Below, piece after piece: positions 9,640 through 59,632 of a DNA stretch of 64,000 nucleotides (the first letter of the stretch is position 1; the number at the start of each line of letters is the position of its first letter). Below the pieces are notes generated by a model, which saw only the letters and a program-made list of their open reading frames with translations, searched no databases and was not told the DNA's origin. The stretch comes from Mustelus asterias. Lineage: Eukaryota. Location of the stretch: assembly GCF_964213995.1 (NCBI RefSeq), contig NC_135818.1:78306001-78370000 (forward strand). Reading direction: 5' to 3'. A program made the translations under genes and the position numbers.

Positions 9640-10035
9640 ACATCTTTACTCTGTATCTAACCCGGTGCTGTACCTGCCCTGGAAGTGTTTGACTGGACAG
9701 TGGAAAGGAAACCCTACTCTGTATCTAACCCCATGTTGTACTTGCCATGTGAGTGTTGGATATAGGACAGTTTACTTTGTATGGCAGTTTGTCAACATTT
9801 AAATCTCAAGGAGGTATTTTCACCTAAGTCTTGCCTCTAGTGTGAATTGCGGCTGGAGCCAGGAGGAGATGTGGCCTGTTGGAGACCCCACAGTCAAGCT
9901 GGAGGGGTCTGCAGGTCAAAGTGCATGTGTGGGCCCAGAGGTTACTCTGCTATCCTGCACTGGGAGCATTTGATGGAACATTATAGAGGGGGATTTTACT
10001 CTGCATGTAACCCCCATGCTATAACTCTGGGGGGC
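9640..10035. repeat. Degenerate copies of the shark ~66-bp minisatellite (CTTTACTCTGTATCTAACCC...GGGAGTGTTTGATGG)
   Basis: Motif recurs at about 9643, 9713 and 9995; the array is interrupted by the left inverted-repeat arm. Confidence 0.65.
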
Positions 10036-10492
10036 CTGAACTGAAATCTGTTTCTGCCACTGCAACACGATTGAGCCACGAACATTCCTGAATGATGACG
10101 TGGGCAACAGAGATTACAGACTGCCACAGTCCAAGAGGTCAGTGTCTCCTGTTTCTACTTGTGCTGTGTTGCTGTGTGTGTGCTGCTAGCACTACAATTT
10201 AAAGCAGGATCTGTTGTGACCGAAGGATGATGAGGTATGTTGGATGCTCTTAATTAAAAGACATGGTGTACATTGGGTGGGAACCTTGCTTGTGTTGGCT
10301 CCAATCTCTTGGTCCCCAAGCTGCAACCCAATGTTCAATGGCTTACGGGGCCCACTCATGTACTTTGACCTGCAGACACCTCCAGCTTGACTGTGGGGTC
10401 TCCAACAGGCCACATCTCCTCCTGGCTCCAGCCACAATTCACACTAGAGGCAAGACTTAGGTGAAAATACCTCCTTGAGATTTAAATGTTGA
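9792..10492. repeat. 145-bp inverted repeat pair (9792-9936 and 10348-10492) around a 411-bp spacer
   Basis: The arms are reverse complements with 4 mismatches counted by eye. Confidence 0.95.
10227..10234 (+). CDS. Exon 1 (ATG ATG AG) of a C1r/C1s/MASP-family protease homologue
   Basis: GGATGATGAG|GTATGT is a phase-2 donor that joins in frame to the acceptor at 11008. A tiny ATG-AG/ATG-TG first coding exon is typical of MASP/C1s/haptoglobin genes. A TATA-like ATTTAAAG lies about 30 bp upstream. Confidence 0.65.
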
Positions 10493-11590: not shown

Positions 11591-12389
11591 GTCAGATTTT
11601 CGCTACAAGGCAGGTACTTTTCTGACTCAGCAGATCCAGCTCGATTTAACTTACTGGTCTCGGACGATTTTTGCTCCATGTGGGTGTTGCAGGCGTGGGT
11701 TGTGGGGAAGGAGATGAGGGGGCACCAACCTCACAGATCCTAGATGGTTATGGGAGTGGGTGGGTGCCAAGGCAGGCTGGTTTGAAGGTCTGCCTCAATT
11801 ATCTGGGTCTTCATCATCCCAGTTGTAATAAAGGTGATTGGTTCTTCTGGCCCTTACCCCTCACATCATCTTACAAGACCCAATCCTAAGCTCTACTCAT
11901 AACCTCCATGTTAAGTCATGCCTCTTCCATGCTCACTCACCCAGTACACACAAGATACATAACCAATAAGCCATATAATAACAATGGCAAATGTGGAAAC
12001 TGCTGAGAAGAACAAAGAAATTATCTGTGAAAAATAACTTATTTCTACAACCCCACAAAAGTGTCAATCAGGCAGACAATTAAAGTGTCAATAACAGAGG
12101 CTGCCAACATTTCACATTTCTTAATATTGTCCAAATAAACATTGAAACACAGACAAAAGAGGTCACAGAAAGATCAACTTTTTATAACTGCTTAACGATG
12201 CCAATCAAGCAAAGTCAACAATTCACTTATTAAAACAGATTTCCTAATGAGCTAATGCTTTTATTGGTCTGATCTCATAGCCAAGCATGCATAATCTGGT
12301 CCTTTATCTCTCTCTCTCTCTCTCTCTCTTTATCTCTCTCTTCATCCTACACCCGCTGACTCCTGTTTTCCTTCTCCCCATCTTTGCAG

Positions 12390-13207
12390 TTTGCGGACGG
12401 CCTCCAAACCCGGTGACAATCGTGCAGAGGATAATAGGCGGCAAGCTGGCAGAAGAGGGGAGCTTCCCCTGGCATGTACTGGTGTTGGCAAGGGGTCGGG
12501 GGAGGGCTGGTGGCACCCTGATTGGTGGAGGTTGGGTTTTGACGGCTGCCCACATCTTCTACCCCAAGGGCAGCCTTCGAATAGACCTGGTCCGCCAACG
12601 CAACACCACCCAGATCCGGATGAGCCCAGGCACCAGCCTGCGAGCACGGCTGGCAGGGGCCAACCAGGAGATTGAGGATATCGTGGTGCACCCAGGTTTT
12701 GAGGAGGCACCACACAATTTTGATAACGACATTGCCCTGATCAAGCTGAGGGTAAACCAGGAAGAGGAGGGGGTGATGCCTGCCTGCTTACCCAGGACTC
12801 GGGGGCGTAAGGAGAGTGACCTCTTCCAGCCTGGGAGAATAGGCTATGTGGCTGGCTGGGGGATAGAAGACGGTCGCTTCCTCTGTGACCCGCTGCGCTA
12901 TGTCCCACTGCCCTTTGTCCACCAGAACCGCTGCTTGCAAGCTTTCCAGGAAGCACGAATCTTGGGTTACCGTCCTCCAGTCACCTACAACATGTTTTGT
13001 GCTGGCATTCCCGAGGGGGGTAAGGATGCTTGTGCTGGAGACACAGGTGGGGGCTTCCTAGTACCTGACCCACACTCGGGAGCCTGGTACTTGATAGGCA
13101 TCGTGTCTTGGGGCACTGGTTGTGGGCGGCCGGGACGCTACGGAGTGTACACACGGGTGTCCAGCTACCTCCACTGGATTAACTCCATCATTGCTGCACA
13201 TCCCTAG
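12390..13207 (+). CDS. Exon 3: single-exon trypsin-fold domain, C1r/C1s/MASP-like, with Ser195 replaced by Thr
   Basis: Acceptor tctttgcag|TT in phase 1. VCGRP linker Cys, activation site R|IIGG, WVLTAAH (His57), DIALIKL (Asp102), KDACAGDTGG, IVSWG, YGVYT. No Cys42-Cys58 histidine loop and no introns in the domain, as in C1r/C1s/MASP-2/MASP-3. The spliced CDS is 1014 nt (337 aa). Confidence 0.92.
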
Positions 13208-21076: not shown

Positions 21077-21250
21077 CACAGTAAGAGTTTTAACAACACC
21101 AGGTTAAAGTCCAACAGGTTTATCTGGTAGCAAATACCATTAGCTTTCGGAGCGCTGCTCCTTGCTACCAAATAAACCTGTTGGACTTTAACCTGGTGTT
21201 GTTAAAACTCTTACTGTGTTCACCCCAGTCCAATGCCGGCATCTCCACAT
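21077..21250 (+). mobile_element. Short Penelope-like element with inverted 5' duplication
   Basis: Inverted arms 21077-21133 and 21162-21218; TSD ATGGT(T/C)GAGTGTT; 3' end CATCTCCACATC. Confidence 0.8.
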
Positions 21251-22910
21251 CATGGTCGAGTGTTGACAGATTTCACACTTTTTCCAAAAAGCGGTCATAG
21301 CAAAAGGCACACGGAAAATGTAATTCAAGTCATTAACACTCAAAAGCTCAAGTCTTGCTGCAGGCCCATTGATCATTTCACAAAGTTCATTCTCATTGTC
21401 CTGCTAGATACTATGTAGGTGTGGTGTGATGTGCTAATAATTGGAAGTTGGCTATTTTTAAACACACCAGACATAAACATTACCATTTGACATACACAAA
21501 TGAATGACTATGCACAACTACTGTCCCAATAAAGATAATTAGAGTTTTTATATTTGCCTGGATGAGTTTCAATTGCCTAAAAATTTGAAGAGGAACATGC
21601 TAATATTTTTCTTTCCCAAAATGGCCTGGGATCCTTTGTTTATTGCACTTCATGCAGGAAGTTATACATCTTAATATAGTCATCATGATTAAAGGAACAG
21701 GTGCATGGAACAGCACATTTCTTGTCCATCATTCTCCTTTACTTCCTGCACATGGACAGCTTCAGTTACCAAGGAGTCACAGATGGTGCTGCACGTTAAT
21801 GATTGCAGAAACATCCCTATTTCTGACCTTATGGAGGGATGGTCAAGGTTGAAGCAGCTTTAGAGATTTGGGCTCTAAACATTACCCTGAGGAGCTCCCA
21901 GTGATGTTCTTGGGCCGAGATGATTGGGCTCCAATAACCGTCTTCCCTTGTTCTAGGTTTTTCCCACAGATTCCCGTCAACCCTTTGAGTTTGTGAAGGC
22001 TCCTGGATACCATGCTGAAGAAGGGAAAGGGTTAATTTTTTTGTACTCAAAGTATTTTGTACCTAAAGGGTTAACGGATTTTGTACCTAGAATGTATCAC
22101 AAACATAACCCTTCATTGTGGCTAATCTCCCCAGGTTTATACTGCTCCTGGCATCAATATAAATTATTTATTCATGGTTTCATTCTTTCATTCGTGATCA
22201 AGGACTGTTAAATGGACTTTAATTCATGGCTGGTCTGGAGTTTGCTTCGTGACTGGTATTATGAGCCATGATATATAAATATCCACACTTCTTATGTTCA
22301 GTGAGAGATCTGGTGAACCGCTGTTAAGGTACCAGGTCTCTCCCAAAAACTTTTGAGAATAAAGCTCACTGTACTTTGACTTAGTAACTATCTCAGAGGT
22401 ATTATTTACCTACAACAATTTGGTGCCGAAACCTGGGAATTGTTTGCGGGCTCAGGTTGAATGGCCACAACCTGGGTACTGGAATAGAGTTCCGAACCTA
22501 ATAGGATGAGTCAAACTACAGTGGGTGATCATACGTGATGAGAGAGTGTGAGTGAAAGGAGTCTGAACTGAACACATACAGACAAGGAGGTGTTTGTTTC
22601 TTATACTCAGCCTTAGACCGAATGTTAAGAGGCCAGGATTTTGAAGTGGGTATAAAGACTGGAGAAAAGTTGCCTGAGGTGTGATGTTCAGACGTGAGTG
22701 AGAGAAAGACTATCTGAGTGATCACCGGAGTAGAAGCCGGCTTAATGATGTAAGCTTAATAGTGTAAGTTTAATAGTGTAAGCGGTGGTACGGAGGATTT
22801 GATCACCCCTGACAGGTAACACCGGACTCTGATAAGAGCGACCTAGGAGGGGAGAGCAAGAAGGGAGAATAGAAGACTCCAGGTGGTGCGTATAAAACCT
22901 TATCTGTATT

Positions 22911-24089
22911 ATGGCGGGATCACAAGGACAGTGGGGACCACCGAAATCCCTGATAAACGAATATATGACTAAGAGGGACAGATTCATTAAACAGGTGATA
23001 AAAGGGGGGAGGAATTCATCCCACCCACTAGACCAACAATGAAAATGGTTGGAAAAAGAAAAGAAAGATAGAACTAAGAAAATTGGAGTTCTCTTAGTTC
23101 ACCAATTGGCCGGATTAATTGAACAAGTCTCAGTCTTGGGTAAGAAATGGGCTGACGACAAAGCAAAAACTAAATTGTTGGGAGCATGCAATAGAGAAAT
23201 AGAAAGAAGAAACAAGACAAAGAAGATAGGAGTATTGTTAATACATCAGTTAGCTGGACTAATTGAACAAGTAGTCGCCTCCACTAAGAAGTGGAGTGAG
23301 GATAAAGAAAGGATTAGGGAGTTAGAATCCAGAGTAAGGGAACTGAAGAAACAAAACCAATTATTAGAAGAAAAGCAATGGAGAGGGGAAACCGTTCCTC
23401 TACCTCCTTATGAGTCCACACAACAGGGACTAACCGCTCTTCCAGAGGAGTGGGAAGTGCCAGTAACACAAGGGGGAACAGATGCGCAGCCAAAAGTAAA
23501 TTATGAACCCTTCACCCCAGGTGAGAGACAGCAGATAATGGTTTCCCTGGGTAAATTACAACCTAGAAGTGCAAACACTAAATTCTGGGAAGAATTAGAC
23601 ACAATCTGGGTAGGACATCAATTACACCTGAGAGACGTACACCAGCTGATCAGGGCAGCCTGTCCAGCAGGTAAGTGGAGGCAGGTAGCAGGTGGACCCG
23701 CCGTTCCTCCAGCACAGGATTATAGTGGGGGATGGTGGACACATGTAGTCACCCTAACATCAGAAATAGATGCCCAACAGACACCCTTCACCCAGTTTAA
23801 GGCAGAAATTCAGAGACTGTTAGGGAATGCTCCTACTAACTGGAGCGGAATAACCACAACAAAGCAGCTAAAAAGGGAAGGAGCTTCTGAATATGGGGGA
23901 TGGTTGTTCAAGGTATATCAGGAGTGCTCAAGACAAGGAGACCCAGGTTGAGGAGATTGAGCGTTCATCCAGGCTTTTAAGGATGAATTCTTTAGTGTTT
24001 ATCAAAACATCCTAAAATTGGGGGTGATCGTGTCCCAGGATTACGATGAGTTGGTAGAGTGGGCTAGTGGCATATCTGGAGCTGGATAG
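22911..24089 (+). pseudogene. gag: ERV gag, interrupted by in-frame stops
   Basis: ATG at 22911 is in frame with the 300-aa ORF, with one TGA at 23040 and further TGAs from 23949. Contains a coiled coil, an LPPY late-domain-like motif and a major-homology-region-like KQLKREGASEY. Confidence 0.75.
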
Positions 24090-29669: not shown

Positions 29670-31519
29670 CTGGTAACGGTGGTGGGGGAAAGAAAGGTGT
29701 GGAGAGGATTAAGAGAATCTTGCTTGATCCACTGAAAACCAATTCACTTAAAATCTGACATGCTAATCATTTACTTCTCGAGTATCAGTCTCAATACTCC
29801 AAAGGCTTCGCAATTCAGATGCAATCATAGTCGTGTACAAAACTTTAGAACTATCCGCTCCCATCACTATTTGTCAACTAAAAACCAACTTTTGCAATGC
29901 TTTCCACCCACGTCTCACTTCCCTTTGCCAATTCCCTTTTTTGTCCACCCAAGAAAACTTATGTACAACTTCACTTCCAAAATCTAAACTGTCCTGCCTT
30001 TGGCTATCCATTCATTCTCTTCTGTACCCCTCAACAGCAACCTCACCCCCGTCTCTGATGCCTTAGTCCTATTAAAGCCTATGCAGTCTCTCATCCTGGC
30101 CATTCTCCTGATGCAGCCCTCATCTTTATGACCTCAAGCCTGAGGTTTGGATAATGTGGACAACTGATTTGGTCATTTACTGCCAGATCTGGCTGGATCA
30201 CAAAGCCAGAAACTGCTCCAAAATCATCTTTCAATGCAAAGATAACCTTTAACAACTTTCCTCTTTTGACCACTCTCCCCGTCTCTCCACCATCAGCAAC
30301 AAACAAAGACTTGATCAAGATTAAGACTATTTGATCAGATGCCTGCCATGTCCTTTTTCCTCCCTGCCCAATGAGCCAAGCTTCTAATTTGTCTCCCTGC
30401 CCTAAACTCTTTGCTCTAGTTTCTGTCCTGCCTCTTGCTGCATCCCTCAAAATAATTCCTGCTTGATCTCTCTATCCTTGCAACTGACAACTTCTCTTCA
30501 CCAAACTCCAGTTAAATTGTTGGCTCCCAATTCATACCCATCTTTCCAGAAATTGCCACTCTTGACTCGTAAGCGGTCTCTAAACTGGCAGCTTGCTTGT
30601 CCAACAACCAGTTCTGGGCGAGTTGAAATATCCTCCAACTGAATATTGGGAGGTTCAGAGCTATTGTCTTAGTTTCCTGCCACAAATTCCATTCCGCGAA
30701 TCATAGAATCCCTACAGTGCAGGAGAGAATATTTGGCCCATCAAGTCTGTACCGACTCTGATAAGGCAAGGGTAAGATGCTCTATCCCCGTAATCCCATG
30801 CATTTACTACACTAAATCCCTTAAACTATACATGTAGGGACGCTAAGGGGCAATTTAGCAAGGCCAATCCACCTATTTTGCACATCTTTGGACTGTGGGA
30901 GGAAATTAGAGCATCCAGAGGAAACTCACGCAGACACGGGGAGAATGTCAGACTGTCACCCACACCTGGAATCAAACCGAGGTCCCTGGCACTGAGGCAG
31001 CAGTTGGTGCCCTATTCATAAGCTTGGGTCATATCTGACCCTGAGATGACTTTCCAACCACAAATCTTCATTATTCTTTCCATCTCTAAACCTGCCTCTG
31101 ATACCGAAATCCTCAACCAATCATCTGCTGCCCTTAGACATAATTTTCCAACTCACTCCTGGGAGTGCACAAGAGGCCAGAATTATGAGTGCATACATTC
31201 AGCTGTCTGGGTCAATTCCATCGCCAAGGCTCTCTTTCCTCCTTTAAGATGCTCGTGACCAAGCTCATCATGTGGCTCCGTGCTAAATTTGATTTGATGA
31301 TGCTCCTGTAAAGCATCTTAGGAAGTGTTAAAGCTGCTATAGAAATACAAATTGTTCTTCAAGCTGCCATTAATCTGCAATCCAAACCTGGGGTAAATAA
31401 ATCACAAGCTCCAGTTTTTTCTGACCTGCAAAGTCCTGGTTGCTGTCAGAATTTTCCAACTTGGTTCTTAAACCTTACTTGCTTTGCATTTTAATCTTGG
31501 CTTGTCCAGTTACCAATTA

Positions 31520-32049: not shown

Positions 32050-33229
32050 TGTGGTCGAAGGGTCTTTTTCCGGCTGGAGGTCTGTGACCAGTGGTGTTAG
32101 CCTGAAGAAGGGGCTCAGAGCCTCGAAAGCTTGTGTGGCTTTTGCTACCAAATAAACCTGTTGGACTTTAACCTGGTGTTGTTAAACTTCTTACTGTGTT
32201 TACCCCAGTCCAACGCCGGCATCTCCACATCATGACCAGTGGTGTTCCACAGGGCTCTGTACTGGGACCTCTGCTATTTGTGATATATATAAATGATTTG
32301 GAAGAAGGTGTAACTGGTGTAATCAGCAAGTTTGCGGATGACACGAAGATGGCTGGACTTGCGGATAGCGAAGAGCATTGTCGGGCAATACAGCAGGATA
32401 TAGATAGGCTGGAAAATTGGGCGGAGAGGTGGCAGATGGAGTTTAATCCGAATAAATGCGAAGTGATGCATTTTGGAAGAAATAATGTAGGGAGGAGTTA
32501 TACAATAAATGGCAGAGTCATCAGGAGTATAGAAACACAGAGGGACCTAGGTGTGCAAGTCCACAAATCCTTGAAGGTGGCAACACAGGTGGAGAAGGTG
32601 GTGAAGAAGGCATATGGTATGCTTGCCTTTATAGGACGGGGTATAGAGTATAAAAGCTGGAGTCTGATGATGCAGCTGTACAGAACGCTGGTTAGGCCAC
32701 ATTTGGAGTACTGCGTCCAGTTCTGGTCACCGCACTACCAGAAGGACGTGGAGGCATTAGAGAGAGTGCAGAGAAGGTTTACCAGGATGTTGCCTGGTAT
32801 GGAGGGTCTTAGCTATGAGGAGAGATTGGGTAAACTGGAGTTGTTCTCCCTGGAAAGACGGAGAATGAGGGGAGATCTAATAGAGGTGTACAAGATTATG
32901 AAGGGGATAGATAGGGTGAACGGTAGGAAGCTTTTTCCCAGATCAGAAGTGACGTTCACGAGGGGTCACGGGCTGAAGGTGAGAGGGGCGAAGTATAACT
33001 CAGATATTAGAGGGATGTTTTTTACACAGAGGGTGGTGGGGGCCTGGAATGCGCTGCCAAGTAGGGTGGTGGAGGCAGGCACGCTGACATCGTTTAAGAC
33101 TTACCTGGATAGTCACATGAGCAGCCTGGGAATGGAGGGATACAAATGATTGGTTTAGTTGGACCAAGGAGCGGCACAGGCTTGGAGGGCCGAAGGGCCT
33201 GTTTCCTGTGCTGTACTGTTCTTTGTTCT
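32050..33229 (+). mobile_element. Young 5'-truncated CR1 LINE (RT C-terminal half) in NPC2-B intron 3
   Basis: GVPQGSVLGPLLF, KFADDTK; open frame 32233-33149; interrupted at 32099 by a Penelope-like element. Confidence 0.96.
32099..32232 (+). mobile_element. Short Penelope-like element with hammerhead core, inserted in CR1
   Basis: 14-bp TSD TGACCAGTGGTGTT (32085-32098 and 32233-32246); CTGAAGA-stem-GAAAGCT; AATAAA. Confidence 0.85.
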
Positions 33230-37133: not shown

Positions 37134-37587
37134 CTGCAATAGTAATGACCAGTTAATACCAATTATTTCAAGTTAGTTGCACAAATAAATTAACCAGACC
37201 TTGATGCTGTGAAAGGATAAACTGCACCTAGCTGTAAAAAAAATGAAAATTACCTAAAGCCACAAACTATCTATAGAATAAACTAGGTGTTTCAATTCAT
37301 TCTTCTCCTTCACCACACCACAGGTTTTCCTATTCTGAGATGATCAGCAACAAAACGCCTCATAAGACTCGCATAAGCTGCACAGCAAGCAGTTTCAAGA
37401 TTACACCAATAATAATGTTGGAAACTGTGGTTGAACCTTGTGAAACTGGAAGCATCGACAGTTTAACTGAAGTGTTGTTTACCATAGCCAGTTGCACAAA
37501 GACTTTACCAAAGTAACCCGCTAAAAGCTTTATACTGCTTTTTCAGATATACAAGAACCACTGGACTGCGTCAAGAAACAAAGTCAT

Positions 37588-37818
37588 GATGTGGAGATGC
37601 CGGTGTTGGACTGGGGTAAACACAGTAAGAAGTTTAACAACACCAGGTTAAAGTCCAACAGGTTTATTTGGTAGCAAAAGCCACACAAGCTTTCGGAGCT
37701 GCAAGCCCCTTCTTCAGGCGAGTGGGAATTCTGTTCACAAACAGAGCATATAAAGACACAAACTGAATTTACATGAATAATGGTTGGAATGCGAATACTT
37801 ACAACTAATCAAGTCTTT
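37588..37818 (-). mobile_element. Penelope-like pseudo-LTR fragment with hammerhead motif
   Basis: 15-bp TSD AAGAAACAAAG(T/C)CAT; the - strand reads CCACTCGC-CTGAAGA-AGGGGCTTGCAGCTCC-GAAAGCTT-GTG. A further copy is at about 42278-42396. Confidence 0.82.
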
Positions 37819-40800
37819 AAGAAACAAAGCCATCAACTTATGGGATGGAAGGCTGCCACTACGTAGATCCTTAATATGGTTTTAATCGTTTGACAATAGA
37901 GATCATTTAGACTGGATCAACACTGTTAACAGTTCTGAGCAGAAGTGACTGGTAACAAATGCAAACATGAAAACTCAAAGTTCATTTACAAATCAGAGAT
38001 GTGATGTTTCAAGAAAGTTAATTAAAACTACCTTGGATAAGATAGGGAAAGATGACATTAAAACCAGTTTTTGACTGTTAATGACAGAAAACATGTGAAT
38101 GCTTTAGATGCTTGTGGAGGTCAATGTCAAGATGGGTTTTAACTCCATTGGATAATATATTACAGAAGTCAGTGTAACATCCTGCCTGCAGTCAGGCAGT
38201 GGTAATTTGACCAAACAACTCAAAAGACCCACAAACAACAGGCGCGGATCATCTGTTGGCTGTGCGCGTGGTTCCCTCTTGTAACATCATTGATGGACTG
38301 CTTATAGCGTTGTGTGGCATAAATCTCAAGTAAAAAGAATCATAAATCTGTAAATTCCAGGAGAGAGGACTTATTGTACTGGACACTCACTAAATCCTCA
38401 ATTCCACCTCGAAAAGAATTCTACATCAGCCTGGAAGAACCAGGAAAAATAAAGGTGCTGATTCATTCATCCCAGATTCTCTTGCAAACAGGTCAGTCAA
38501 AAAGAAGTTGTCCTTAGCCCGAGGGAGTGAGATAAATCTACTAGCTTCAGTAACGTAACAGCAATAATTGCAAAATATATGCACTATTTGGAAAGCAGCA
38601 AATTGCATAACAATATTTCCTTACTTTTATGGTTAAGTGGACTGTGCAGTTATTAGATCAAAGCATAATAGAATTGCAATTTTACTGTGATTTAAAACAA
38701 CACCATTAGTTTATAAATATTGATTATGGAGAAGCAGGAAGGGATCTCGCTGATTCACTTTCAAGGTCAGAATGTTTTTATTATTTCTTGGGATGTGGAA
38801 ACAAGATTGGAATGGGCCAAGTGTTCAAAAACACGAAAAAGATGATCAACTCAAAATTATCCCGAAAAACAAAGCTGAGAATCCTAGAATGCTTCATCAT
38901 ACCAATTTTAACTTGTATAAAATGGCACTGGATGATCAGTAAAGTAACACAGAGAAGAATTGAGACTAGAGATTTGCTTTTTTGAACATGTCACACCAAA
39001 TCTAATGTTGAAAGAACTCTGCTGGTCAAGATCAGGAATAAACAGTGGAATTTCTCGGGTGCATAATAAGAACGGAGAGCATGCTTCACCAGCATCCTTT
39101 ATGGAAATACACCAGCTGTTCTTATTTGGGCGTGCCTGGATGTAACTCCAACTCTCCGGCCAACTGCAAACTCAGGTGGTTGACTCTTAACTGCCAATTG
39201 AAATGGTCTAGCAGGCTAAACAAGTGTTACCAATGCCCATTATCAAGAAGCAAGCAGACCAATCAAGGTGATTGGGGATGAGCAGTGATCACTGGCCAGC
39301 AGCACCCACATACTATAAATTTTAAAAATAATGGCATCAATATTCAAAGAGCACATTCATGTACACTTTAATAATCAGAATTCAAAAAGCAGAATTGGGT
39401 AGATTTTGCTTTAAAATCTTTGTGCTATTTTTGCTCAGTTCTTGCCAAAACTGTGTAACATCGAAGAAAATACTGGACTTCAATACCACAGAGGGAAACT
39501 CTCAGCTAGGCCAACTGGAATAACTCCACTAGGTCAACAGAAAACAACAAACCTATAGTGAAAAGGGAAACAATATCCAACGACTCAGTCAACATTCTCA
39601 GCAACAATTTGCAGAAGTTCCACGATTACCGGACAGAGACCAAGAAGCTACTCGGTGTCTGACAAATTCATGGCAGAATTTCAAACTTCTGCAGTGCACA
39701 AAGTTCAGCACTGGATGGTGGTAGATTTTTGATAAGTAAATATACATGTGAAACACAATTGTATTGTGCAAAGCATTTCAAATCACGTAGCTAAAACAAT
39801 GCTACCGCAGTCTCGTCTGAAACTAGTCAAGTGATTTCTATTGGACACCACGGATCTGCAGGAGGAACGGAAAATAAATTCCTGCAGCTCTCTCTTCATG
39901 GAGAACAACAGAAACGTAGAGTGGAAAAGAAACGGGATGACCCCAATTTGCCGATAAGGTGAAAAGGGGCTACGCAAAATGGTGGAGGGCAAAATAGTTA
40001 AAACGTTAATAAGTAATTCTACAATCTTACATGGACAGCAGACTTTATAGCACTTTGAGTGCCAAATGGTGTGAAAAGCACCATCAAAACGTGTGCCACG
40101 TGTGAAAATTAAGGGCACCTTGATTGATAGGTCAATGGAGGGTGAGCTGTAATAATTGCAATCCCCAGGAGTTTGGCTGATGATCTTCAAGGAACCACCT
40201 TAATTTATTTTTGTCTCACTTGGGAGATTCTCTAGACAGCATAGAGAGGCAAATGCACTTTTAGAACTCAAATTCACCTCAAGATGGGTGGCTTTTTAAA
40301 AAATTAGTGTGGACCATACTGCCCATAAGAAAATATGACATTCAATACACTTTACTCCATAGATGTCATGGACTAGAAAACTTTCTGTAGAGAAAAATGG
40401 GAAGAGAAACAAGGAAGAGAAACTAGAACAATGCTATAAAAAGATTTTGATTTTACTTGCATGGTTTAGCATGCCTTTGTGGCCCTTGGAGATTTTGCAC
40501 AATACATTTCAGCAAACACAAAGTCTCTGTTATAACCTCGCTCTGTTCAAGTTTGTTTCCTGTATTATACCAACACCACGTTATACGTTAACACATTAAA
40601 CCAACACCAACATGAAGCACTTTTTAAATGACACAAGCATCTAAAAGAACTAAAAGTTAATTGTTTCCAAGCAAGTTCACTACTTGTTTGGCAAGTGAGG
40701 CAGCCAATTCTTCACACAACGTGATAAACAAAATACTGGAAATCTATTTCCAGCTTTTCTGTTTTGTTTTCACTCGGCAGTTCAGACAGTATCTGTTGAT

Positions 40801-41336: not shown

Positions 41337-42752
41337 CATGCTAAGGGATAGAAGTTAATGCTAAGGGATAGAATTGAAAAGCAGAGATGCCCTGTTAAAT
41401 ATATAGAACTTGGTTGTGTACAGTTCAGAATGCCATATTACATAAATGATAGAGGCACTAGGGAGTGGGTGCAAAATTAATTTACAATCATTTACAATGA
41501 TTATACCAGAATGATGCAGAAAGGATGAACGGGCTGCGTCTTTGAGTAGAAAACTCAAGAGTGACCCAATTGAAAGATGTCCTAAATAGACTATACACAC
41601 AGAATGTTTCCACTAGCATTAAAGATTTAAAGACAGTCAATGTTAGATAACTAAGTAATTAAACAGGGGAGTCAAAACAAACCCCTTTACCCAGAATGTG
41701 GGACTCATTATCACAGGGAGAGGTTGGGGCAAATTGTCTAGATTTAAGAGCAAGTTAGAAAAGCATGAGAGAGAAGGGACAAGACAATTACACTAATAAA
41801 AGTCAGGTAGAGAGGTGCATGAACAGAGAATGTCAGGCCAAGACACTGAAATGTCTGTCCCAGTGCTACAAATTCTCATGGATTTATTTTAACAGCAGTC
41901 TCTTGTTTCCCAGAGATTTAAAAAAAATACTTGCAGCAAATAGGCAAGCTATAATTTAAAATGTCGGCAGTTAGATGGAGCTCAATAATTCCCTATATTT
42001 CCAAATGTTCAGCGGTTTATTCACACAGGTCAGCTGAGGAGGCTTGGCACTCAGCAGTCTGACTAAGAACACTTCAGTTGGGGCGCTGCCACCCAAGAAA
42101 CACTTTGCGAGTCTTTCAAGAACCCACACGCTATTGAAAAAAAACAATTCCCAGCATGGGCGCACACACACAATAATAATGAATGGGCACTTGATCTAAC
42201 CAGTGTACGTGAACGAGTCAGATGATCAGACCACACTCACATTCCAACAGAATTAGCCAAGTCAGTCTGCAGAAATGATGTAGAGATGCTGGCGTTGGAC
42301 TGGGCATGGTAAAAAATTTCACAACTTCAGGTTAAAGTCAGACAGTTTTATATTTGAAATCACGAGCTTTTGCAGCGCTGCTCCTTCATCAGGTGATTGG
42401 AGAAAGCTGAGGAGGAAGATAATTAGGTGCCTTATCAACCCAGTTTTGGGGCTCACACCTCAGGGGGCATCAAGTTGTTTTAAAGGTAAGGGGAACTGAT
42501 CCACTTCAGATCAGCCATGATCTTATTGAATGGCGGGGCAGGCTCGAGGGGCTGGATGGCCTACTCCTGCTCCTATTTCTTATGTTCTTAAAAAAAAACA
42601 CACAGCAACTTGGGAGAAATGCGATTTTGTTTGGCAGAAAGTTGTGTGAACTCAGTGACAGGTTAGTGAAGTTTAATCCCCGATGTAAACTATATAAAAC
42701 ATCAATCTACCCGCACCCAATCCAATTCCCCCAGTCCAATCCATTCACTCAC

Positions 42753-52227: not shown

Positions 52228-52251
52228 GTGAGCTAACAGTAACTGTCAATA

Positions 52252-52555
52252 TTCATCCCGGCCTTTTGGCTAAGAACAAGTGTAGTTTTGGCCTCCTGCA
52301 CTTGTTTGAAGTCATGAGGTTATACTGAGGCTTCACTTGAAGCAATTTTGTAAAGTGGTATCTAGGCCTTTTGGCCAAAATGCGAGATCAAGCCTTGGAG
52401 AAGGTGCAATGCCTGCTGCAATCAGCTTGCATCATGTAGATCAAACCCAAGACAAGAAGTGGGATGCCTGTCTTGTCAACTTGGATCTGGAATGTCTCAC
52501 TTGCTGAGACTTTGAATTGGAATTTGATTGGATTGAATTGGATATAAACAAAAAG
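52252..52555 (+). mobile_element. U2-snRNA-headed retroposon (SINEU-like) in intron 1 of the putative ISCA2
   Basis: Perfect 15-bp TSD CAGTAACTGTCAATA (52237-52251 and 52556-52570); CGGCCTTTTGGCTAAGAACAAGTGTAGT matches the U2 5' end at 27/28 nt; second U2-like copy at 52361-52380; (TTGGA/TTGAA)n plus A-rich tail. Confidence 0.85.
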
Positions 52556-58056: not shown

Positions 58057-58713
58057 GGCTGGGATTCTCCCAAAATAAAACTAAGTGCCAAATGGGCTGG
58101 AAAACGGGAGTGTTTCCTGCCGTTTTTTGGGCGTACTTACCGCAATGAATCTCCAATCTGAGCAATGCAGAGTGCCATAGCACGATACACTCTGAAAAGT
58201 GGTGGGCGGGGGCTATTCTGGCCAAGAGGCCGGCAGCATAGTTCTGAGGACACCTGTTCACCGTTAGTGGGGAACAGTTGTAAACCCTGCTGGTGGGAAT
58301 CATGATGTGGAGATGCAGGCGTTGGACTGGGGTAAACACAGTAAGATGTCTCACAACACCAGGCCAAAGTCCAACAGGCCTACCCGGCAGCAAAAGCCAC
58401 TAGCCCTCGGAGCACCGCTCCTTCACCAGCAGCGCTCCGAAAGCTAGTGGCTTCTGCCACCAAACAAACCTGCCGGACCTCAACCTGGTGTTGTGAGACC
58501 TCTTACTGTGGGAGTCACTCCTAGTTTTGGGGAGGCGGGGTGAGGCTAGCAGGCCCAGAGATTATAGATTTCCAGCACGGAGCTGATTGCGCTTAAAAAA
58601 AAGAGCAGCGATTGAGAGACTTGTGATTGGGAATCTCACAAAATGCCTCCCGCTGTTGTCTCCCAGCCCACTGCTCTGCTTAAGCAGCACAGAAGGCCAG
58701 GAGAATCTCGGCC
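58057..58713. mobile_element. Harbinger-like MITE
   Basis: Terminal inverted repeats GGCTGGGATTCTCC and GGAGAATCTCGGCC flanked by CTAG; hosts the edited Penelope-like copy. Confidence 0.65.
58301..58510 (-). mobile_element. Penelope-like hairpin element, A-to-G hypermutated
   Basis: Inverted arms about 58337-58418 and 58428-58510; TSD GTGGGA(A/G)TCA; about 20 T-to-C (+ strand) differences from sister copies. Confidence 0.85.
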
Positions 58714-58729: not shown

Positions 58730-59632
58730 GGTTTGATTGATTGGATAGAGAAAAAGTGAAGTTCACTCCAGAAAAGTGAGAGGCAATGCGTTTTGGGAGG
58801 GCAAACAAAGCAAGGGAATACTCAATAAACGGGAAGGTGTTGAGGGGTTGAGGAAATGAGACACCTTGGAGTGCATGCCCACAGGTCCTTGAAGGTGGAC
58901 AAGGTGGTCATAAGCATACGGAATACTATCCTTTATTTGATGAGCTACTGAATACAATAGCGGGAATGTAATGATGGAAATGTATGAAACACTTGTTAGG
59001 CCACAAATGGACTTTTGTGCACAGTTCCATTTACCACATTACAGGGAGAGCATAACTGCTGCAGAGTGTGCACAGAGAAAATTTACAAAAATGTTGTCAG
59101 GGCTTGAAAATTGCAGTTATGAGGAAAGATTGGACAGGCTAGGGTTGTTTTTCTTTGTAAGAAGTTTAACAACACCAGGCCAAAGTCCAACAGGTCTACC
59201 TGGCAGCAAAAGCCACACAAGCCCCCGAGGCGCCAAGCCCCCTCCTCAGGAATTACTCCTCCCCCTCCTCCTTTAAACTTCATCATCATCATCATGAGGG
59301 ATATAGAAAGGTGAATAGCCAAGGTCTTCCCCAGAGTAGGGGAGTGCAAAACTAAGGGCATAAGGTGAGAGGGGAAAGATTTAAAAGGGACCCGAGGGGC
59401 AACTTTTTCACATACAAGGTGGTATGTATATGGAATGAGTTGCTGGAGGAGGTGGTAGAGACGGGTAGAATTATAAATTTAAAATACATTTGGACAGGGT
59501 ACGGCTGGGAAGGGTTTAGAGGGATTTGGGCCAAATGTAGCCAAATAGGACCGGTTCAGTTTTGGAAACCTGGTCAGCATGGACGAGTTGGGCCAAAGGG
59601 TCTTTTTCTGTGTTGTATATCTCTATGACTCT
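58730..59632 (+). mobile_element. Decayed CR1 3' fragments
   Basis: LVRPQMDFCAQF, SYEERLDRLGLF and a CTCTATGA tail. Confidence 0.8.
59157..59250 (-). mobile_element. Penelope-like fragment, A-to-G hypermutated
   Basis: Aligns to 37625-37718 with about 11 T-to-C (+ strand) changes. Confidence 0.8.

What the first reader, a model, noticed from the sequence alone, without database searches (positions are those of the whole stretch)
59157..59250. Second independent A-to-G hypermutated copy
Seen: about 11 T-to-C changes in about 95 bp relative to 37625-37718 (GGCCAAAG, GGTCTACCTGGCAG, GCCCCCG, CCCCTCCTCAGG). It belongs to the CACACAAG/CTGAAGA variant, not the CACTAG variant at 58301, and the altered positions only partly overlap. 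Inference: two separate events within 1 kb suggest the process is common. Their closeness and shared strand could instead point to a local cause.
Basis: partly seen in the sequence, partly recalled or inferred. Interest (0 to 1): 0.7.

Follow-up and report, generated by a model that had tools for sequence, protein, structure and literature searches.

The report
RNA-edited retrotransposon copy in shark DNA
A 94-base piece of a jumping gene in a shark genome has half of its A letters changed to G on one strand, the pattern the RNA-editing enzyme ADAR leaves, which suggests an edited RNA was copied into inherited DNA; a similar copy lies 650 bases away.

Summary
At the 89 positions where two unedited copies agree, 59157-59250 has T>C at 11 of 22 T and 1 other change in 67 sites (p=2e-7). 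The element looks like the hammerhead-bearing pseudo-LTR of a Penelope-like retroelement in a smooth-hound shark; no element ORF was found. On the element's RNA strand (minus) the changes are A>G and break the hammerhead core and AATAAA. Flanking LINE DNA shows no such skew. Pooled with the neighbouring palindromic copy (58301-58510; 18 of 45 A edited, both arms, same strand), editing avoids a 5' G (1 of 11) as ADAR does; in this copy alone that bias is not significant. Best reading: ADAR-hyperedited RNA was reverse-transcribed into the germline, separately from 58301. A single local RNA-to-DNA write-back is not excluded, and 'common' is unproven. Ten literature searches found no report of germline-fixed ADAR-type hypermutation in Penelope elements.

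The parts
59157..59250 (-). Hypermutated fragment of a Penelope-like pseudo-LTR (element sense = minus strand); 11 A>G in sense, all within 59180-59245; the four As at 59158-59167 near the 3' end are unedited
59223..59249 (-). Hammerhead-like core (CUGAAGA, stem II, GAAA in unedited copies); here 5 A>G edits remove both conserved core stretches
   Evidence: sequence; stem II folds in the 37585 and 32100 copies; no Rfam hammerhead match
59195..59200 (-). AATAAA of unedited copies, here broken by three A>G edits
59251..59290 (.). Junction filler: a 10-nt direct copy of the already edited end of the element, a 9-nt inverted copy of its 3' part, and a (CAT)n run joining the right flank
   Evidence: 10-mer matched in 75 of 5000 shuffles; best match to unedited copies 6 nt
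58863..59156 (+).
   Evidence: the comparator copy carries RVT_1
59287..59630 (+). Right flank: LINE 3' part, colinear with the left flank but about 40 bp of target missing; no target-site duplication; no T>C skew
58301..58510 (-). Neighbouring palindromic copy (83-bp arms plus 36-nt unpaired tail at 58301-58336); A>G on the minus strand in both arms (7 of 25, 11 of 20), none of 8 in the tail; 10-bp TSD with one mismatch
58057..58713 (.). MITE-like host element of the 58301 copy (14-nt inverted ends), showing that 58301 sits at its own insertion site
37585..37820 (-). Unedited reference copy, same variant, with tail and 15-bp TSD
32100..32234 (+). Unedited reference copy, same variant, with tail and 14-bp TSD
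21077..21252 (+). Unedited palindromic copy with 36-nt tail and 13-bp TSD (control for 58301)
42275..42397 (-). Older diverged copy with CUGAUGA core, no A>G excess (0 of 30)

Best explanation
The copy is a genomic fossil of ADAR hyper-editing. A transcript of a shark Penelope-like element was double-stranded over its pseudo-LTR, most likely through the inverted copies this family often forms (inferred; the partner is not present at this locus). ADAR turned about half of its As into inosine (inferred from the mutation pattern). The element's reverse transcriptase started near the tail-less 3' start site, read I as G and inserted the cDNA into an old LINE in a germline cell (inferred). The join was untidy: about 40 bp of target lost, no TSD, filler templated from local sequence (shown). 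The 58301 palindrome is a separate insertion of another edited RNA. Shared edited positions reflect hot spots in an identical duplex sequence.
For: One substitution type on one strand at 50% of sites, A>G on the element's RNA strand. The 58301 fold-back has 19 C.A mismatches on plus and 0 G.T among 20 mismatches, so both arms changed on the same strand, as expected only if one hairpin RNA was modified; its unpaired tail has 0 of 8 edits. 5' neighbour over three arms: U 7/15, A 18/27, C 3/13, G 1/11; G versus rest p=0.017, U/A versus C/G p=0.0008, matching the upstream-G depletion described for ADAR (PMC5625713 section 6; PMC8096273 passages). Flanks unskewed. Of 170 repeat alignments in the window, the T>C cluster flag hit 12: 9 involve these two copies and 3 one SINE. 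The filler copies edited bases, so edits existed when the junction formed. The 3' end lies 4 nt from the tail-less end of the inverted arms at 21077 and 58510, fitting the two internal RT start sites of PMC11167929. 5 of 11 remote translations of the repeat show antisense plus sense pieces. Penelope RNAs are top ADAR targets in X. tropicalis (PMC10636886 passage) and elephant shark shows hyper-editing (PMC5625713 table passage).
Against: In this copy alone the neighbour bias is not significant (G 1/4, p=0.31). No 3' G preference (7/19 versus 22/47). No dsRNA partner is shown for this copy. 8 of 11 edits are shared with 58301; nesting has p=0.04 after context correction over 13 sites, 0.31 over the 10 sites inside the edited span (weights included one site later reclassified). 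The two edited copies are the closest pair among six (647 bp versus 4.5-15.9 kb; 1 of 15 pairs, post hoc) and share a strand. A small hairpin between them (58659-58704) has 4 C.A and 0 G.T mismatches, though 3 of 4 fit CpG decay and the MITE ends show the opposite. The tail control is confounded, because the outer 27 bp of the 58301 duplex is also unedited (0 of 4 favourable sites). No element ORF links the repeat to Penelope by protein.
Confidence: 0.6

Rival explanations
1. One local write-back event. Both copies first inserted unedited. A minus-strand read-through transcript over 59250 to 58301 was edited by ADAR where double-stranded, and cDNA or RNA-templated repair overwrote its own locus.
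For: Closest pair of six copies and same strand. 58301 keeps an exact tail-less end and a TSD just like the unedited palindrome at 21077, which a retrocopy of a palindromic RNA need not reproduce. The 59157 copy can pair with the 58301 inverted arm (-116 kcal/mol). The intervening hairpin has 4 C.A and 0 G.T mismatches. The filler could be the remnant of a lost second arm.
Against: The 58301 arms pair better with each other (-149 kcal/mol) and the predicted fold of the read-through does not pair 59157 with that arm. Edits at 59242 and 59245 lie beyond the stretch complementary to the 58301 arm. The filler repeats edited bases. No host exon with a Pfam match was found among 140 frames scanned from 43.2 to 63.9 kb. 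It needs a mechanism with little precedent.
Confidence: 0.17
2. Descent, not a new event: the Gs come from an already edited master copy that was re-amplified, or from short gene conversion between the two neighbours.
For: 6 of 6 nested edits in the shared 60 nt; 8 of 11 overall; 647-bp spacing.
Against: Variant-diagnostic bases differ on both sides of the shared tract. Two 58301 edits lying among the shared ones are missing here (59195, 59201). Three edits are not in 58301. 0 of 11 remote translations show the G-rich form. An edited master within this variant would still need ADAR upstream, so it changes the event count and not the cause.
Confidence: 0.12
3. DNA-level error: G misinserted opposite template T during second-strand synthesis or gap filling by an error-prone polymerase (Pol iota or eta type; recalled), or adenine deamination on single-stranded DNA.
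For: Would also give same-strand A>G on both arms; the recalled Pol eta WA context resembles the 5' U/A bias seen.
Against: A density of 40-55% with almost no other errors is far above recalled polymerase error rates. It gives no reason to spare the tail, the flanks or the other four copies.
Confidence: 0.07
4. Sequencing or assembly artefact.
For: Reads were not available. Clustered same-type sequencing errors exist (G-to-A in Sanger traces, PMC2873906 abstract and passages).
Against: Confined to two copies of one family, absent from the palindrome at 21077 and the 145-bp inverted repeat at 9792-10492; shows neighbour bias; repeated in the filler. The matching named protein comes from a 91-Mb contig.
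Confidence: 0.04

Closest known systems
A-to-G hypermutated avian retroviruses (Rous-associated virus, avian leukosis virus; seen only as a passage in review PMC12925331)
   Same: About 50% of As changed to G, in part within an inverted repeat, attributed to ADAR and read out after reverse transcription.
   Different: Those are infectious LTR retroviruses; this is a non-viral Penelope-like element in the genome sequence of a shark.
APOBEC 'DNA editing' of LTR retrotransposons (PMC4866542, one passage; PMC2873906, abstract and passages)
   Same: Clustered, strand-specific, single-type hypermutation in individual genomic retroelement copies.
   Different: That is G>A on the sense strand from cytidine deamination of cDNA. 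Here it is A>G on the sense strand, pointing to the RNA stage. The PMC4866542 filter selected against A-to-G.
ADAR hyper-editing of repeat transcripts, including Penelope in X. tropicalis (PMC10636886 passages) and elephant shark brain (PMC5625713 passages, section 6)
   Same: Repeat-derived dsRNA, clustered A>G, 5' G depletion.
   Different: Those are RNA-versus-genome differences. Here the pattern is in the genome itself.
Penelope/Poseidon-type pseudo-LTR fragments (PMC11167929 parts 1-2 of 4; PMC8557442 passages)
   Same: Hammerhead motif, 30-40 bp tail at one end only, inverted 5'-truncated copy, two fixed 3' ends.
   Different: No RT/GIY-YIG ORF in the window, so clade membership is untested; the papers' passages read do not describe hypermutated copies.

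Membership tests
Penelope-like element (pseudo-LTR fragment) | ORF with PLE reverse transcriptase and GIY-YIG endonuclease | tested here: inconclusive
   All six copies are short fragments. Pfam scans of 50 long and 140 short frames found no GIY-YIG (only part of the window's frames were scanned). Searches with a pLTR frame found no linked RT.
Penelope-like element (pseudo-LTR fragment) | Type I hammerhead motif in the pLTR | tested here: met
   By inspection: CUGAAGA or CUGAUGA, a stem II hairpin and GAAA in unedited copies. Rfam gave no hammerhead match, fold z-scores are near 0 and cleavage was not tested.
Penelope-like element (pseudo-LTR fragment) | 30-40 bp tail at one end only | tested here: met
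   36-nt unpaired tails at 21219-21254 and 58301-58336; feature from PMC8557442 passage.
Penelope-like element (pseudo-LTR fragment) | 5' truncation with adjacent inverted copy | tested here: met
   2 of 6 window copies are palindromic; 5 of 11 remote translations contain antisense plus sense pieces.
ADAR hyper-editing signature | Clustered A>G on the transcribed strand, few other changes | tested here: met
   11 of 22 versus 1 of 67; 19 versus 0 mismatch classes in 58301.
ADAR hyper-editing signature | Depletion of G 5' of edited A | tested here: met
   Pooled 1 of 11, p=0.017; this copy alone 1 of 4, p=0.31. The pooled arms are not fully independent.
ADAR hyper-editing signature | Enrichment of G 3' of edited A | tested here: not met
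   7 of 19 versus 22 of 47. PMC5625713 section 6 reports that this preference is lineage-dependent (A in some groups); the text does not place the shark.
ADAR hyper-editing signature | Double-stranded substrate | tested here: inconclusive
   Met for 58301 (-149 kcal/mol, z=-16); no partner shown for 59157.
ADAR hyper-editing signature | Inosine in RNA, dependent on ADAR | not testable with these tools
   No RNA-seq or reads available.
APOBEC DNA-edited retroelement | G>A clusters on the sense strand | tested here: not met
   Direction is A>G on sense, polarised with five other arms.
Non-LTR retrozyme | Head-to-tail tandem units each with a hammerhead | tested here: not met
   Copies are single or inverted; definition from bioRxiv 10.64898/2026.07.22.740005 part 1 of 5.

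The most novel reading that the evidence does not exclude
RNA edits were written back into their own genomic locus: one ADAR-edited transcript spanning both copies served as template, through Penelope RT or RNA-templated repair at a palindrome, to overwrite germline DNA in place. This would be a natural, heritable RNA-to-DNA editing route acting on fold-back repeats. A less extreme version (probability about 0.35) is that shark genomes hold many ADAR-hypermutated Penelope insertions, an A>G counterpart to APOBEC DNA editing.
Probability: 0.15. Interest if true: 0.9.

Novelty: new variant of a known kind. Interest (0 to 1): 0.62.

Why it matters
Deaminase footprints in genomic retroelements are known as G>A from APOBECs. 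A 2016 review states that a role for ADAR editing in retroelement evolution and suppression by mutation was undetermined (PMC4982230 passage), and L1 RNA was found unedited by ADAR1 in cell culture (PMC5224506 passages). Germline copies with an ADAR pattern would show that heavily inosine-modified RNA can be reverse-transcribed and inherited, that editing destroys the hammerhead and polyadenylation motifs of daughter copies, and that genomes record past germline ADAR activity. A single genome-wide scan of a public shark assembly can test this. Both edited copies keep an unedited 3' end (0 of 4 favourable sites here versus 10 of 12 inside, p=0.008 post hoc), hinting that the priming region is protected or must stay intact.

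Tried and rejected
Regional T>C bias: rejected. Left flank T>C 10/73, A>G 9/76; right flank 12/73 and 10/80, and 1/19 and 1/26 against the closest copy; the LINE 530 bp left of 58301 has 12/120 and 5/120, scattered and unpolarised. The comparators are mostly 65-70% identical, so a small skew would be missed but 50% would not.

C ancestral and T derived: rejected by five unedited arms, loss of conserved motifs and the two-arm pattern.

One long transduced insertion from 59290 to 58301: rejected, because 58301 has its own TSD inside a continuous MITE and no convincing outer TSD was found.

One site was dropped: 58433 was first counted as an edit and reclassified as CpG decay in the partner arm.

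More copies from outside the window: 0 matches in genome contigs and none in plasmids. Two protein searches with a pLTR frame gave nothing. The profile search gave 11 unnamed proteins; their sources could not be looked up, so they may be genomic or transcript-derived and of any shark species. Rfam found no hammerhead; its MIR1144 and mir-503 rows are below gathering score and reflect the hairpin. A host gene over the locus was not found.

Literature: 10 searches found no paper on germline-fixed A>G hypermutated Penelope copies. The library lacks most subscription papers. Supplements were not read; those of PMC4866542 and PMC5625713 may hold A-to-G control counts or shark repeat editing data.

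Full report
Observation. The 94 bases at 59157-59250 align without gaps to 37625-37718 and, reversed, to 32101-32194. Against 37625 there are 11 T>C changes and 4 others, all four in a stem-loop that also varies between the two unedited copies. At the 89 positions where those two agree, 11 of 22 T are C and 1 of 67 other bases differs (Fisher p=2e-7); A>G on plus is 0 of 28. The variant assignment is right.

Organism and family. An exon at 12401-13204 is 100% identical to a named Mustelus asterias protein, and the next six hits are also sharks. The repeat has six copies in the window: 21077, 32100, 37585, 42275, 58301 and 59157. Read on the strand opposite to the T>C changes, unedited copies carry CUGAAGA or CUGAUGA, a short stem and GAAA, then AATAAA. 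Rfam did not call a hammerhead. Two copies are palindromes with a 36-nt unpaired tail, and four have 10-15 bp target-site duplications. A hammerhead motif, a 30-40 bp tail and inverted truncated copies are the described marks of Penelope-like pseudo-LTRs (PMC8557442 passages; PMC11167929 parts 1-2 of 4). No RT/GIY-YIG ORF was found, so the assignment rests on structure.

Direction and strand. On the element's RNA strand the changes are A>G. Five other arms have A at these sites, the edits break the hammerhead core and AATAAA, and 0 of 11 unnamed remote translations of the same frame show the edited residues. That last sample is biased towards unedited forms by the profile and by 50% clustering.

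Why ADAR. The neighbour at 58301-58510 is the key control. Its fold-back has 19 mismatches of the C.A type on plus and none of the G.T type among 20. After one CpG site is removed, 7 of 25 As in the inverted arm and 11 of 20 in the sense arm are G on the minus strand, and 0 of 8 in the unpaired tail. Copying one arm from the other, or priming each arm separately on sense RNA, would put the changes on opposite strands; a single edited hairpin RNA puts them on the same one (inference). Across the three arms the 5' neighbour gives U 7/15, A 18/27, C 3/13, G 1/11 (G versus rest p=0.017), the upstream-G depletion reported for ADAR (PMC5625713 section 6; PMC8096273 passages). Against this: the bias is not significant in 59157 alone (p=0.31), there is no 3' G preference (7/19 versus 22/47), the outer 27 bp of the 58301 duplex is also unedited, and no partner strand for 59157 is shown.

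Flanks. Neither LINE flank is skewed (left T>C 10/73, A>G 9/76; right 12/73, 10/80). Among 170 repeat alignments in the window, 12 were flagged for T>C clusters: 9 involve these two copies and 3 a SINE at 30698 that has C>T relative to its relatives. A regional bias is therefore rejected.

Anatomy of the insertion. The two flanks are colinear on a LINE copy with about 40 bp missing and there is no TSD. The element's 3' end is 4 nt short of the tail-less end shared by the inverted arms of 21077 and 58301, consistent with the second internal RT start site described for the Anolis element (PMC11167929). The 40-nt filler at 59251-59290 holds a 10-nt copy of the edited end of the element (75 of 5000 shuffles match as well; unedited copies match only 6 nt), a 9-nt inverted piece and a (CAT)n run. 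Such patchwork resembles templated end-joining (recalled) and suggests the edits were present when the junction formed. The inverted piece could instead be the remnant of a lost second arm.

Independence. For: diagnostic bases differ on both sides of the shared tract; 58301 has its own TSD inside a continuous MITE; two 58301 edits among the shared ones are absent here and three edits here are absent there. Against: all 6 edits in the shared 60 nt are nested in the 8 of 58301 (p=0.016), or p=0.04 to 0.31 after allowing for context; the two are the closest pair among six copies (647 bp versus 4.5-15.9 kb) and share a strand; a hairpin between them has 4 C.A and 0 G.T mismatches, 3 of them at possible CpG sites, while the MITE ends show 2 G.T and 0 C.A. 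A one-event local write-back explains closeness, strand and the exact ends of 58301. It does not easily explain the edits at 59242 and 59245, which lie beyond the 58301 arm's complement, or the edited filler, and the predicted read-through fold does not pair the two copies. I put separate insertion of edited RNA at 0.6, local write-back at 0.17, descent or conversion at 0.12, DNA-level error at 0.07 and artefact at 0.04. An ADAR-RNA origin of some kind is thus about 0.85-0.9 likely.

Frequency. Two of six copies in a selected window cannot give a genome-wide rate. No other shark DNA was reachable (two contig collections closed; source look-up for the remote proteins unavailable).

Comparison with what is known. 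ADAR-type hypermutation after reverse transcription is known for avian retroviruses (PMC12925331 passage; the 1994-95 papers were not seen). G>A editing of genomic LTR elements is known (PMC4866542, one passage; PMC2873906, abstract and passages). Penelope RNA is a leading ADAR target in X. tropicalis (PMC10636886 passages). ADAR1 restricts L1 without editing it (PMC5224506 passages), and a review calls a mutational role of ADAR in retroelement evolution undetermined (PMC4982230 passage). Ten searches found no description of genomic A>G-hypermutated Penelope copies; the library is incomplete and no supplements were read. Recalled and from no call: the CR1, MITE and SINE labels, hammerhead core conventions, polymerase error properties and the end-joining signature.

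Verdict. Real, well above chance, most likely an ADAR-edited Penelope-like RNA fixed in shark DNA. It is a new variant of a known kind: known ingredients, in a combination I did not find reported. This copy mainly adds recurrence to the stronger case at 58301. Interest 0.62.

Noticed in passing
window 12281-13207 (+): Long trypsin-family exon (Pfam Trypsin), 100% identical over 268 aa to a Mustelus asterias 'complement C1r subcomponent-like' protein; the basking shark relative is named haptoglobin-like.
   Followed up: partly
window 30698-31004: SINE-like copy with C>T 13 versus T>C 0 and G>A 6 against 31525, and C>T 15, T>C 3, G>A 9 against 41013; most C>T sites are not CpG. A mild strand-biased C>T excess, possibly age, possibly cytidine deamination.
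   Followed up: partly
window 52249-52290 (+): Short match to the 5' end of U2 snRNA, below Rfam gathering score (31.4 of 46 bits); probably a truncated U2 retrocopy.
   Followed up: no
window 21077, 32100, 37585, 58301 junctions: The tail end of each copy overlaps its target-site duplication by 3-4 nt, suggesting microhomology-assisted priming; TSDs are 10-15 bp.
   Followed up: partly
window 59158-59167 and 58301-58363: Both edited copies keep an unedited 3' region; editing stops at the same element position in both. Could reflect protein protection or a need for an intact priming site.
   Followed up: partly
window 9792-10492: Young inverted repeat with 145-bp arms, 141 of 145 paired, no editing-type skew.
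   Followed up: partly
window 23043-23951 (+): 302-codon open frame with no Pfam match; not examined further.
   Followed up: no
window 59228-59238 and matching parts of 32100, 37585, 42275: Stem II and loop of the hammerhead-like motif vary between copies while keeping pairing in the 32100 and 37585 copies.
   Followed up: partly
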